A stretch of DNA of 13,430 bases from Octopus sinensis (lineage: Eukaryota): contig NW_021826134.1 of NCBI RefSeq assembly GCF_006345805.1, positions 1-13,430 of the forward strand, read 5' to 3'. Shown in pieces: positions 3,276-13,279 of the stretch. Every line of letters begins with the position of its first letter. Position 1 is the first letter of the stretch. The notes under the pieces were generated by a model, which saw nothing but the letters and a program-made list of their open reading frames with translations, was not told where the DNA came from and made no database searches. A program made the translations under genes and the position numbers.

Positions 3276-3482
3276 AATAATAATTTGAAATTTTGGCACA
3301 AGGCCTGTAATATCGGAGGAGGATTTAAATCGATTACATCGAACCCAATTTTATTTTATCGACCCCGAAATTGATAAAAGGCGAAGTCGACCTCTGCAGA
3401 ATTTGAACTCACAACGTTATGACGGCCGAAATGCCGATAAGCATTTCGCCCGGTGTGTTAGCGATTCTGCCAGCTCTCCGCC
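3276..3482 (-). mobile_element. tRNA-derived SINE family A, full-length diverged copy
   Basis: Head GGCGGAGAGCTGGCAGAATCG with A-box-like TGGCAGAATCG (3472-3462) and B-box GAGTTCAAATT (3410-3400), then the central GTCGACTT..CCTTT..TTTCGGGGTCGATAAAAT domain. Two more copies lie within 450 bp. Confidence 0.85.
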
Positions 3483-3558
3483 TTCCAGCTGCTTGAATAA
3501 AAACAACAATCAATATGAACTAAAACAATAAGAAGAATAACAATTACAAGAATCATAA

Positions 3559-3717
3559 TTCTTTCTACTAGAAGCGCAAGGCCTGATATTTAGAGGAAGG
3601 GATTAAGTAGATTACATCGTCCCCAGTGCGTAACTTGTACTTAATCTATCGATTCCGAAAGGATGAAAAGCAAAGTCGACCTCGTCGGCATTTGAACTCA
3701 GAACGAGAAGACAGACG
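3559..3717 (-). mobile_element. SINE family A, 5'-truncated copy
   Basis: Shares CAAGGCCTG..., GAAAGGATGAAA.GCAAAGTCGACCTCG and ATTTGAACTCAGAACG with its neighbours; breaks off at GACAGACG where the next copy's tail begins. Confidence 0.85.
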
Positions 3718-3914
3718 CTACACACAGAGGGGACAAATAAGGACAGACCAACGGATTAAGTCGATTATATGGACCCCAGAGCGTACTGGTACTTATTTAA
3801 TCGACCCCGAAAGGATGAAAGGCAAAGTCGACCTCGGCGGAATACGAGCTCAGAACGTAACGGCAGACGAAATACCGCTAAGCATTTCGCCCTAACGATT
3901 CTGCCAGCTCGCCA
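3718..3914 (-). mobile_element. SINE family A, near full-length copy with a different 3' tail
   Basis: ATCGACCCCGAAAGGATGAAAGGCAAAGTCGACCTCGGCGG core and CGATTCTGCCAGCTCGCC head. Its tail (3718-3754, ACACACAGAGGGGACAAATAAGGACAGAC) differs from the other two copies. Confidence 0.85.
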
Positions 3915-5028: not shown

Positions 5029-5034
5029 ACTATA

Positions 5035-5242
5035 TGTATTTGTATGTCTGTGTTTGTCCACTCACCATCACTTGTCAATCCATGTTTGTGTGTTTACGTC
5101 CCCGTAACTTAGCGTTCGGCAAAGGGCGCTGATAAAGTAAGTACAAGGCTTGCAAAGAATAAGTCCTGTGGTGGATTAGTTCGACTAAAGGCGGTGTTCC
5201 AGCATGGCTAAAGTCGAACGAGTGAAAGAAGGAAAAGAATAA
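5035..5242 (+). mobile_element. SINE family B, 3' half only
   Basis: Reverse complement of about 7285-7475 (GTCTGTGTTTGTCC, CCCCGTAA.TTAGCG, AAAGAATAAGTCCTG, CGACTAAAGGCGGTG.TCCAGCATGGC). No tRNA head seen. Confidence 0.85.
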
Positions 5243-5394
5243 ATCTCTAGTCTTCTTTCCGATAAGTGTAAACATACAAAGCAAAGCACAGAGTTAGCAA
5301 AAGCCGTATCCGTGCTAGCTGTGCATCACACACCATCACGTTAATCGTCGTCGAGCGATCCATGCCATACATTAATAAATCATAATCATGCAGG

Positions 5395-6806: not shown

Positions 6807-6849
<43 letters not shown>

Positions 6850-6955
6850 GGTCAATTATATAGTTATATATATATATATATATATAATTATATATGCATA
6901 TATATACTCTGTGTGTGTGTATATATATTCATATACATATACATTTATATATCAT
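6795..6955. repeat. (TA)n-rich microsatellite
   Basis: Seen directly. Confidence 0.9.
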
Positions 6956-6956
6956 A

Positions 6957-7183
6957 TTACTCTTTTACTTCTTTCAGTCATTTGACTGCAGCCATGCTGG
7001 AGCACCTCTTTTAGTCAAACAAATCGACACCAGGGTTTATTCTTTACAAACCTAGTATTTTTTAATCAGTTCATCTGCCGAACCGCTAAATTACGGGGAC
7101 GCAAACACACCAATATGGGTTGTCAAGCGATGAAGCAGGGACAAACACAGACACACAAACATATACATACATTCATATACATA

Positions 7184-7217
<34 letters not shown>

Positions 7218-7223
7218 GGGCTT
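6957..7223 (-). mobile_element. SINE family B, 3' half plus internal microsatellite (head missing)
   Basis: Direct repeat of about 7281-7570 (TTACTCTTTTACTT, TTGACTGC.GCCATGCTGGAGCACC, GGTTGTCAAGCGATG, GACAAACACAGACACACAAAC). Confidence 0.85.
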
Positions 7224-7276
7224 AGTATTTAATACATAAACTTATAAGCCATATATATTGTATATATCAATGTATA

Positions 7277-7725
7277 TTCTTTACTCTTTTACTTGTTTCA
7301 CCCACTTGACTGCGGCCATGCTGGAGCACCGCCTTTAGTCGAGCAAATCGACCCCAGGACTTATTCTTTGAAAGCTTAGTACTTATTCTATCGGTGTCTT
7401 TTGCAGAAGCGCTAATTTACGGGGACATAAACACACCAGCATCGGTTGTCAAGCGATGTTGGGGGACAAACACAGACACACAAACACACACACACCACAC
7501 ACACACACACACACCCACACACACACACATATATTATATATTATATATATATATATATATACGATGAGTTTCGTTTCAGTTTCCGTCTACCAAATCCACT
7601 CACAAGGCTTTGGTCGGCCCGAAGCTATAGTAGAAGACACTTGCCCAAGGTACCACGCAGTGGGACTGAACCCAGAACCATTTGGTTGGTAAGCAAGCTA
7701 CTTACCACACAGCCACTCCTGCACC
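7277..7725 (-). mobile_element. tRNA-derived SINE family B, full length, CORE-like domain, internal (CA)n(TA)n
   Basis: Head GGTGCAGGAGTGGCTGTGTGGT with A-box (7715-7705) and B-box GGTTCAGTCCC (7672-7662). ACCTTGGGCAAGT (7651-7639) matches the CORE-SINE motif. Microsatellite at about 7475-7560; AGTAAAAG-type tail. Confidence 0.9.
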
Positions 7726-10520: not shown

Positions 10521-10559
10521 GTGTGAGTGTCTCTTTTTGTCTGTGTTCCCAATATCACG

Positions 10560-11010
10560 CGACCATTTTTGCATCTTATTGTTACGTGTGATGAAATATG
10601 GAATCTTTTCAACAATGGCAAGCGTTCTGCACGGTGGTTGGAAAGAGACGAAGTGCCAAAACACAGTCCAAAAAAGAAAATTCATCAAATAAAGCTCATG
10701 GTGTCTGTTTGGTAGTCCAGCATTGGTGTCATCCGCTGCAGCTTCATGAGACCTAGTAATGATGTGTGAACTTGCAATTGACAAACCGAGATTAGTCAAT
10801 AGAGACAGGCCAATTCTCTTGCAATGCTTGTCAACAGGTTGCTGAACTTAGAAGTACTCTGTCATGCACCATATTTACCAAAGCTTCCGCCAACTGACTA
10901 TCACGTTTTCCAGGCATTAGACTTTTGCAAGGAAAAAACTTCAAATCTGAAGAAGATGCAAAAAACAGGGTTTCAGTTCAAAATCGGACATTTCATTCTT
11001 AATGACCTGA
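10560..11010 (+). mobile_element. Decayed mariner (Tc1/mariner, DD34D-type) transposase fragment with probable 3' TIR remnant
   Basis: FLHLIVTCDEIW (first catalytic D), KLMVSVW*, RPILLQ (10807-10824; the following DNARPH motif is deleted), and HAPYLPKLPPTDYHVFQALD (HPPYSPDLAPxDY motif). Stops, frameshifts and deletions throughout. Confidence 0.9.
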
Positions 11011-11129: not shown

Positions 11130-11332
11130 GTTGTTTGTCTAAGCGTTTGCGCTGTGCTTGTTCTCCTTACTGCTTGACAACCGGTGTTGGTTTGCTTATG
11201 CACGCATAATTTAGCTGCAAAAGAGAACGATACAATGATAGCAGACTTAAAAACAAATGCGTACTGGGTTTTATTTGTTCGACTAAACACGTCAAGGCAA
11301 AGAACTCCAGTATGGCCACAGTAAAAGATGAA
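11130..11332 (+). mobile_element. SINE family B, diverged 3' half; tail interrupted and resuming at about 11603-11624
   Basis: GCTTGACAACCG.TG.TGGT, TTGTTCGACTAAA and CTCCAG.ATGGCC.CAGT match the family B copies. CAAAAGTAAAA...GTAAAG after 11602 looks like the rest of the tail. Confidence 0.7.
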
Positions 11333-11602
11333 TTGTAACAGATGAATTTCTACACATCTGTGACCACTTCAGTGACACTTTCCATCCTCGTGTATGCTCC
11401 TGCTCTACTTAATCTATAAGAATGGATTAAGCAGAGCAGGAACATACACAAGGATAGAAAGTGTCCCTCTGCTCTGCTTAATCTATGAAAATGGATTAAG
11501 CAAGGCAGGAGCATACACAAGGACAGAAAGTGTCGCTGAAGAGGTCACACGTGTGTGACGAAAGGTTTCCAGACAATGAACAGAAAAATTCATATCCTAC
11601 AA
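11333..11602. mobile_element. 270-bp palindromic element with internal tandem duplication and hammerhead motif
   Basis: By manual count, 11352-11417 vs the reverse complement of 11491-11556 matches 55/66 ungapped, and the termini 11333-11349 vs 11586-11602 match 14/17. 11400-11465 is directly repeated at 11469-11534. Confidence 0.85.
11531..11575 (+). ncRNA. Minimal type I hammerhead ribozyme motif
   Basis: CTGAAGA 11536-11542; extra G; perfect helix II GTCACA-CGTG-TGTGAC 11544-11559; GAAA 11560-11563; UC at 11568-11569; helix I TGTCG with C(A)GACA, one bulge. Helix III is reduced. Confidence 0.65.
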
Positions 11603-12332
11603 CAAAAGTAAAAAAAAAGTAAAGCTAAACTAAAAGTCAGCCTTGAGCTGGCCCACTTGGGCCACAGAAAGAAAACAGGGAATATTTACTACACGTAACC
11701 TGTTGGTGCATCTCGATGTTTCTGTGACTATTCAGGAAGATTGATAGATTGATAGCTTGATACGAAAATAGAGAAAGTGAGTGACATAAGGAAAGGAAAA
11801 CAGTGAGAAAGAGAGAGAAAAGAAAGAGAGAGAGGAAAGAGAGTGAGTTTTTCAGAATAGTCTTTATGTAGTCATTATTTGATATCTTCTGATATCACAT
11901 TATATATTAAATAAAAACACAAACATTAATCTTTTGTACACAAGTGTGCTATTGTAATTTCAATATATAATTTCACCAACTAATGTAGGTATGATATTTT
12001 CATGCATAGAATATACACAGCACCTGTTTAACATCAATCACGTCATTTGACAGGTAAATTCCACACATTATTCAAATTTTATTCTCCGGCTTATTTCTTT
12101 ATGTTTTTGCCTGTTTTGAAAATTCAAAGAATTGGCACTTCAGGGGTTGATTTCGGCTTTAACAATTTTTTTTATCATTATTTGTATTTGTATATTGTAA
12201 TTGTGGAGGGGCATTTTATTGAAGCTTTGTGTTTCGATTTTGATTTTGAAGAAAAAAAAATAATGAAGACTTTCGTATGGTATTTTATATTCTAGTGAAA
12301 TTTAACTGTCACATTGTCATATATACATAAGC

Positions 12333-12640
12333 CACCCACCTTCTCCTCCCACCCCACCTCCTTCTCCTCCTCCACCCCTCTCCCTTCTGTCCTCCTCCCC
12401 ATCCCCTCCTCCCCTCCATCCATCCTTCCCGCCCACCCCTCCTCTTCTTCCCACCCCTCTTCTTTCTCCCACCCCCTCATCGTCCTCCACGTCCTCCACG
12501 TCCTCCACGTCCTCCTCCCCTCTCCCTTCTGTCCTCCTCCCCTCTGGTCTCCTCCCCATCTCTCCTCCCCTCTGTCCTCCTCCCCATCCCTCCCCTCCCT
12601 TCCCACTCCTCTTCTTCTTCTTCCTCCTCCTCCTTCTCAT
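12333..12640. repeat. C/T-rich low-complexity tract (CCT/CCC based)
   Basis: Almost purely pyrimidine + strand; includes CGTCCTCCA x3. Confidence 0.9.
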
Positions 12641-13279
12641 TCCCGTCATCGTCATCATTACTTTGAGAAGGAACATCATTATCGTCATCACGAACATCGT
12701 AACCATTAACATTACGAGAATCAAAAGTAACTCAGTTATCATCGTTTTAATATTTAGCATAATTTTCATCATCCTCATCGTCTTCAGCATCGTCAGCATC
12801 GTCCATCCTCTTCGTCATCGACCTTGTTTTCGTCATCGTCATCGTCATCGTCATCACCATAATAATTCTCATAGTCGACATCACCGTCATCACGTTCGAC
12901 GTCGTCTTCACCATGATCAGAACAATAACCTTTAGCAATTATCCTTACCTTCCTGGATCGTCGTCATCATCATCACCATCACCACCATCTTCATCATTAT
13001 CGTCCTCATCGTCGTCGTCGTCGTCGTCATCATCATCACCATCACCAGCAGCACCACCACCACCACCATCCTCATCCTCATCCTCATCATCACCATTATA
13101 TCGTCGTCGTCGTCGTCGTCGTCATCATCATCATCACCATCACCACCATCTTCATCATCATTATCATCATCGTCATCATCGTCGTCGTCGTCGTCGTCGT
13201 CATCATTATCATCATCATCACCACCACCACCACCAACACCACCATCATCATTATCATCATCATCATTATCATTATCATT
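12641..13279. repeat. Compound trinucleotide tract (CAT/CGT/CAC/CCT)n
   Basis: Seen directly; gives the poly-His/Arg/Ser/Met ORFs. Confidence 0.9.

What the first reader, a model, noticed from the sequence alone, without database searches (positions are those of the whole stretch)
11333..11602. Fully palindromic hammerhead-bearing element nested in a SINE tail
Seen: two head-to-head arms of one unit, 3' ends outward (TTGTA...TACAA termini), meeting at a 4-nt loop, with the apex plus 44 nt duplicated at a 69-nt period. The right arm holds an HHR; the left arm is its antisense and lacks the ~27 nt covering GAAA to the cleavage site. SINE tail sequence continues on both sides (..AGATGAA | CAAAAGTAAAA), with no clear TSD. 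Alternative folds exist: the left arm pairs with 11491-11556 and sequesters the ribozyme core, or with 11422-11465 (39/44) and frees it. Known: Penelope-like insertions often contain inverted pLTR segments. Inference: either such an inversion product or a MITE-like, rod-shaped retrozyme family with ribozymes in both polarities, which I do not recognise as described.
Basis: partly seen in the sequence, partly recalled or inferred. Interest (0 to 1): 0.75.

Follow-up and report, generated by a model that had tools for sequence, protein, structure and literature searches.

The report
Back-to-back Penelope retrotransposon stump
The mirror-image DNA with a hammerhead ribozyme motif is real, but it is a single decayed, back-to-back copy of the end of a common Penelope-type jumping gene, an arrangement found in half of that family's sampled copies and already described, so it is likely ordinary.

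Summary
The palindrome, the 69-nt apex duplication and a minimal hammerhead (HHR) in the right arm are real. Contigs from independent runs cover the locus. The arm is the 3' pseudo-LTR of an old, abundant Penelope-like element (PLE): longer copies carry a decayed RT, a CX4CxxC linker and a GIY-YIG endonuclease upstream of it. Of 90 copies taken in genome order, 45 are head-to-head. Their apexes differ, and the optional tail lies on exactly one arm in 26 of 27 classifiable cases, the published PLE signature. This copy's apex, both arm-end junctions and right terminus occur once in the genome. In 14 palindromes the antisense arm resembles its own partner more than other copies' arms, so palindromes arise per insertion and do not propagate. 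The left arm has a core mutation and lacks GAAA, so there is no second-polarity ribozyme. Forming the HHR in the full RNA costs 29.5 kcal/mol. Arm mismatches look neutral. Small residue: family 5' ends pile up about 48 nt upstream of the HHR, and both arms here share a deletion-like end. This scan noted similar PLE palindromes elsewhere in this genome.

The parts
11131..11332 (+). Host SINE (diverged copy of an abundant family), body and start of its tail; start approximate
   Evidence: 28 HSPs in fetched loci; 12 tails compared; paralogue at window 7334-7454
11321..11348 (+). 14-nt tandem duplication straddling the left boundary; makes the boundary fuzzy
   Evidence: (D7)
11333..11417 (-). 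Left (antisense) arm: PLE pLTR positions -45 to +20 (0 = C3 of the HHR) plus a 19-nt end; HHR dead (A9->U at 11366, GAAA to cleavage site missing)
11418..11421 (.). Apex 1 (4-nt loop), at the family's 5'-end hot spot
11400..11537 (+). Tandem duplication of the apex region, 2 x 69 nt, 88% identical; creates a short sense copy (11419-11468), a short antisense piece (11469-11486) and apex 2 (11487-11490)
11488..11602 (+). Right (sense) arm: pLTR -46 to +46 plus about 20 nt of end; most of the family's 3' part is missing
11531..11575 (+). Minimal type I hammerhead motif (stem I 11531-35 with 11570, 11572-75; core from 11536; stem II 11544-59; predicted cut after C 11569)
   Evidence: features compared with PMC4209133; activity untested
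11603..11625 (+). Likely remainder of the SINE tail (A-rich repeats)
   Evidence: comparison with 12 SINE tails

Best explanation
This is a single head-to-head pair of pseudo-LTR ends of an old RT/GIY-YIG Penelope-like retrotransposon, likely made in one insertion event and likely decaying neutrally since. SHOWN: the arm is the 3' unit of an RT/GIY-YIG element; head-to-head pairs make up half of sampled copies; this copy's apex and ends are unique; only the right arm keeps a complete minimal HHR. INFERRED mechanism: the family's RT/endonuclease copied a short pLTR template starting about 48 nt upstream of the HHR, the commonest 5' end in the family. The copy then folded back or re-primed at that end, giving the mirror arm, and was integrated into an AT-rich SINE tail without a clear TSD. 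The template had probably already lost most of its 3' part, because both arms end in a similar 17-nt piece. The 69-nt apex duplication and the further 27-nt loss in the left arm likely arose at or soon after insertion, since all three segments are 11-17% apart. In any read-through RNA the HHR is predicted to be locked in the rod and silent.
For: 12 of 25 loci found with the endonuclease region carry the window's right arm (71-86%) 350-710 nt downstream on the same strand. RT and GIY-YIG motifs appear in L063, L064, L080 and L082, with 10 long homologues, the best 60% identical, a weak RVT_1 hit (E 0.004, below cut-off) and the linker/CCHH pattern. The exact 29-nt core occurs 287 times, control 0. 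Of 90 loci in genome order, 45 are inverted, 41 single and 4 distant; 23 of 90 sense 5' ends fall in -51..-41. 3' ends cluster at about +150 and +200; the tail is on exactly one arm in 26 of 27 inverted copies with both ends classifiable, and 18 of 45 were not classifiable. Apex, junctions and terminus are unique. Distance to own arm is 0.22, against 0.35 and 0.32 to other copies' antisense and sense arms (14 palindromes). Of 11 arm mismatches, 9 are transitions, with G-U kept 4 times on + and 5 on -. Literature passages: PMC3846280, PMC8557442, PMC4209133, PMC11167929.
Against: No intact direct pLTR-ORF-pLTR copy was found in the 12 ten-kb loci examined. Both arms sharing a deleted end departs from the family rule of a tail on one arm, and the ends do not map significantly onto the family (497 and 265 of 2000 shuffles). 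The own arm is nearest in only 7 of 14 palindromes, and for the window it ranks 2 of 27, on about 42 columns. One 109-nt contig in a run of another organism (X13) lies ungapped across apex 1 with 11 differences; orthologue or independent copy was not resolved. Pfam gave no RT or GIY-YIG hit for the 8 genomic fragments. Exact patterns would miss a family of only a few diverged copies.
Confidence: 0.92

Rival explanations
1. A propagating palindromic, MITE-like or rod-shaped retrozyme family with ribozymes in both polarities.
For: Very stable rod. Termini are more alike than chance (28 of 5000 shuffles). Five of 90 family copies are near-symmetric palindromes with an apex at the same hot spot. 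One contig in another organism spans apex 1 ungapped at 89%.
Against: Apex, junctions and terminus each occur once. The five symmetric copies have five different apex sequences. Antisense arms do not group together. The left-arm HHR is dead and the right one is sequestered. There is no strand bias in the mismatches and no TSD.
Confidence: 0.03
2. A single pLTR stump inserted first and was turned into a palindrome later by DNA-level fold-back repair, independent of retrotransposition.
For: Both arms share a non-family end, including about 9 nt beyond any family match. The apex duplication shows local rearrangement.
Against: Half of the family's copies are inverted, with the tail on one arm, so inversion at insertion needs no extra event. 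The apex sits at the family's 5'-end hot spot. The palindrome stops at the element and does not extend into flanking SINE sequence.
Confidence: 0.04
3. Assembly fold-back artefact on a short contig.
For: The contig is only 13,430 bases. No laid piece spans the whole stretch, and apex 1 has 30 letters on its short side, one below the tool's bridging rule.
Against: Arms are 17% apart. Runs X2 and X4 (two studies) have pieces across the left junction, the duplication joint with apex 2, and the right junction, with 0-7 differences; X5 bridges the left and X6 the right junction.
Confidence: 0.01

Closest known systems
Endonuclease-positive PLE insertions with an adjacent inverted pLTR and optional tail (Adineta vaga Pen2a/Pen2; PMC3846280, passages; PMC8557442 Fig. 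2 legend)
   Same: Head-to-head pLTRs with 3' ends outward, a palindrome at the junction, 5' truncation, tail on one arm only in the family, internal deletions, TSD optional
   Different: This copy is a solo stump without ORF, both arms are shortened to a shared end, and the apex is duplicated; the family tail is about 50 nt against the 30-40 reported
Minimal type I HHRs of metazoan PLEs (PMC4209133, parts 1-2 of 4 read)
   Same: [quoted passage not shown]
   Different: Here the second motif is broken; stem I needs a bulge; no activity measured
Neptune/Nematis-type PLEs (PMC8557442, passages and section 11)
   Same: C-terminal GIY-YIG with a CX2-5CxxC linker and a CCHH pattern; copies often flanked by (TA)n (seen; not counted)
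   Different: Clade not placed by a tree; no named family was compared
Non-LTR retrozymes (bioRxiv 10.64898/2026.07.22.740005, part 1 of 5 read)
   Same: Non-coding, pLTR-related unit bearing a type I HHR
   Different: Retrozymes are head-to-tail repeats with at least two complete HHRs; this is head-to-head with one

Membership tests
EN+ Penelope-like element (parent family) | [quoted passage not shown] | tested here: met
   Motifs read in decayed frames, homologues, linkage in 12 of 25 loci; Pfam support weak
EN+ Penelope-like element (parent family) | 5' truncation with an adjacent inverted copy | tested here: met
   45 of 90 loci
EN+ Penelope-like element (parent family) | Optional tail on one end | tested here: met
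   Two 3'-end clusters; one-arm tail in 26 of 27 classifiable copies. This copy's own ends could not be mapped
EN+ Penelope-like element (parent family) | Direct pLTR-ORF-pLTR tandem unit | tested here: inconclusive
   None clear in 12 ten-kb loci; partial direct tandems in L076 and L173
Neptune/Nematis-type PLE | CX2-5CxxC linker and CCHH motif | tested here: met
   against the text
Neptune/Nematis-type PLE | Placement in an RT phylogeny | not tested
Hydra-clade PLE | CxCX5C linker, no CCHH | tested here: not met
Minimal type I hammerhead (right arm) | Core, extra nt after position 9, G10.1-C11.1, palindromic loop 3, NUH | tested here: met
   core 95% conserved in 30 arms not picked by the exact pattern, flank 92%, so no strong excess conservation
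Minimal type I hammerhead (right arm) | Self-cleavage | not testable with these tools
   Needs an assay; predicted sequestered
MITE-like palindromic family | Many copies with the same termini and apex | tested here: not met
MITE-like palindromic family | Target-site duplication | tested here: inconclusive
   None evident; boundary fuzzy; no empty site seen
Non-LTR retrozyme | Head-to-tail repeats with at least two complete HHRs | tested here: not met
Viroid-like rod RNA with ribozymes in both polarities | Intact ribozyme on each strand | tested here: not met
   Left arm has A9->U and lacks GAAA
Viroid-like rod RNA with ribozymes in both polarities | Circular RNA | not testable with these tools
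   No RNA holder listed

The most novel reading that the evidence does not exclude
A deleted pLTR derivative of about 115 nt folded back on itself as one molecule, and the resulting palindrome was mobilised as a unit a few times. It would be a low-copy palindromic passenger of the Penelope machinery, whose other copies are too diverged for my patterns or lie in related species (one contig in another organism spans the same apex).
Probability: 0.05. Interest if true: 0.55.

Novelty: new member of a known kind. Interest (0 to 1): 0.13.

Why it matters
As it stands it matters little: one more inverted PLE stump. The family numbers could serve work on the open question of how PLEs form inverted ends: half of the copies are inverted, 5' ends and apexes pile up at one position, and the tail sits on one arm in 26 of 27. 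Had the palindrome propagated with ribozymes on both strands, it would have been a genomic analogue of viroid-like RNAs, but the evidence is against that.

Tried and rejected
Rfam scan: only miRNA-hairpin look-alikes below gathering score, no HHR hit. ARAGORN found no tRNA, and there is no B box near the unit's 5' end (one 1-mismatch site at +152), so the tRNA-headed pLTR noted for other families in this genome does not apply here. Cap-G idea (an extra G at 5' ends at -48): G in 6 of 19 heads that do not continue upstream, some of them mis-sorted; post hoc and inconclusive. Mapping the arm ends to the family terminus at +190 was not significant. A conformational switch was rejected at equilibrium (+29.5 kcal/mol); co-transcriptional folding was not modelled. 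Covariation in the HHR stems was not evident by eye in 30 arms and was not formally counted. Empty-site search in organism E runs and X7 gave no flank cover, so no conclusion. Expression: no RNA holder listed. The PDB sequence search was uninformative, and the protein atlas gave no result. Sequence look-up in earlier findings: nothing. Paper searches (listings only unless cited) showed no description of this family or of a propagating palindromic retrozyme; supplements were not read and may list this family.

Full report
Observation. The structure is there as described. Arms 11352-11439 and 11469-11556 are 82% complementary, 11371-11417 and 11422-11468 are 87% complementary around a 4-nt loop, the termini pair over 17 nt, and 11400-11537 is a 2 x 69-nt tandem at 88%. 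Both strands fold into rods far beyond shuffles (z -17.4 and -12.5). Rfam has no hammerhead among 91 hits at E<=1. The right arm nevertheless has the minimal type I motif: C3 at 11536, an extra G before stem II, stem II 11544-59, GAAA, a 4-nt wobble-palindromic loop, UUC with C17 at 11569, and a bulged stem I. These are the features listed in PMC4209133 (parts 1-2 of 4 read). The left arm lacks about 27 nt from GAAA on and has A9->U.

Real DNA. Four runs were laid. X2 and X4 (two studies) give pieces across the left junction, the duplication joint with apex 2, and the right junction, with 0-7 differences. Apex 1 is covered with 30 letters on its short side, one below the tool's bridging rule. 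X5 bridges the left and X6 the right junction. Runs X12-14 and X7 gave only family repeats and no flank cover.

The parent. The 270 nt gave 1847 candidates (40 scored, 84 matches), and no other copy covered the first 19 or last 17 nt. An exact 29-nt core occurs 287 times, control 0. Longer copies extend upstream into a GIY-YIG-like frame. Of 25 loci found with that region, 12 carry the window's right arm 350-710 nt downstream on the same strand and 2 carry it inverted upstream. L063, L064, L080 and L082 show RT motifs in broken frames. One 299-aa fragment found 10 long homologues; the best is 60% identical and is named by its source as a hypothetical Octopus vulgaris protein with an RT domain. 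Pfam gives it only a sub-threshold RVT_1 hit and nothing relevant for the 8 genomic fragments. The endonuclease has a CX4CxxC linker and the CCHH pattern. By PMC8557442 (passages and section 11) this fits Neptune/Nematis and not Hydra or Poseidon. No tree was built.

Family anatomy. I took the first 93 of the 287 core places in contig order, with 3 neighbouring pairs counted once, giving 90 loci. Automated mapping to a family profile called 45 head-to-head, 41 single and 4 with a distant inverted piece. A few chains are mis-cut, for example L125. Sense 5' ends fall at -51..-41 in 23 of 90, against 6-9 in neighbouring bins, and both apexes of the window lie there. Nine of 45 inverted copies are symmetric within 15 nt; five of those sit at the hot spot, each with a different apex sequence. 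The excess of shortened antisense arms (32 of 45) is biased by picking on an intact sense core. 3' ends cluster near +150 and +200. Among inverted copies with both ends classifiable, 26 of 27 have the tail on exactly one arm; 18 of 45 were unclassifiable. Eleven internal deletions of 15 nt or more were found within the unit. This matches the adjacent inverted pLTR, junction palindrome and one-sided tail described in PMC3846280 (passages) and PMC8557442. PMC4209133 already notes opposite-strand HHR pairs. PMC11167929 (passages) shows a PLE protein cutting and extending both strands and starting reverse transcription at two sites that define the tail.

Does this palindrome propagate? No sign of it. 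The apex pattern at 1 mismatch gave the 2 window sites and 1 unrelated site, control 1. The right and left arm-end junction patterns each hit only the window, and so did the right terminal 31-mer at 3 mismatches. No other scored copy extended past position 55 of the last 65 nt. I compared 14 palindromes: 13 of 14 hand-picked loci whose two arms span -42..+20 (L095 dropped as too short), plus the window. The antisense arm is 0.22 from its own sense arm, 0.35 from other antisense arms and 0.32 from other sense arms; the own arm is nearest in 7 of 14 and ranks 2 of 27 for the window. A propagating palindrome predicts the reverse. Against this stand two points: exact patterns can miss a family of a few copies, and one X13 contig lies ungapped across apex 1 with 11 differences in 99 nt, which is unresolved.

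Function. In the full + strand RNA the HHR stems have near-zero pairing probability, and forcing them costs 29.5 kcal/mol, so no equilibrium switch is predicted. Of 11 arm mismatches, 9 are transitions, kept as G-U 4 times on + and 5 on -, which is what neutral decay gives. Left, middle and right segments differ by 11-17%, so they are of similar age.

Mechanism. Shown: parentage, frequency of inversion, uniqueness of this copy and the dead left motif. Inferred: a short pLTR template starting near -48 was reverse-transcribed by the family's enzyme, folded back or re-primed there (self-priming is proposed in PMC3846280), and was integrated in an AT-rich SINE tail. The shared 17-nt termini (28 of 5000 shuffles) suggest the template was already deleted, although those ends do not map significantly onto the family. 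The apex duplication and the left-arm loss followed or accompanied insertion.

Verdict. A new member of a known kind, interest 0.13. My reading was recorded before the look-up of earlier findings, whose unreviewed notes reach the same conclusion for other PLE palindromes in this genome.

Noticed in passing
window 10542-10991 (+): Decayed mariner-type transposase fragment with stops; first segment hits Pfam Transposase_1 at E 2.5e-7.
   Followed up: partly
window 6840-7170, 7161-7495, 5031-5243: Further copies of the same SINE family as the host: a tandem pair and an inverted copy.
   Followed up: no
window 3351-3913: Several partial copies of a second SINE-like repeat, clustered.
   Followed up: no
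L054:6963-7860: Four pLTR arms forming a nested perfect two-level palindrome (antisense-sense-antisense-sense) around a (TA)n centre.
   Followed up: partly
family loci L091-L120, L123-L182: 5' ends pile up at -51..-41 (23 of 90), possibly the pLTR or transcription start; an extra G there is seen in 6 of 19 heads, inconclusive.
   Followed up: partly
L084:478-2417, L089:609-4004, L058:6175-8345: Kilobase-scale head-to-head copies that include endonuclease or RT sequence, some with large deletions in one arm.
   Followed up: partly
L076:2313-2770, L173: Direct tandem dimers of the HHR unit (about 286-nt and 472-nt period), retrozyme-like in arrangement.
   Followed up: no
window 12339-13278: Long (CCT)n and (TCA)n simple repeats near the contig end.
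   Followed up: no
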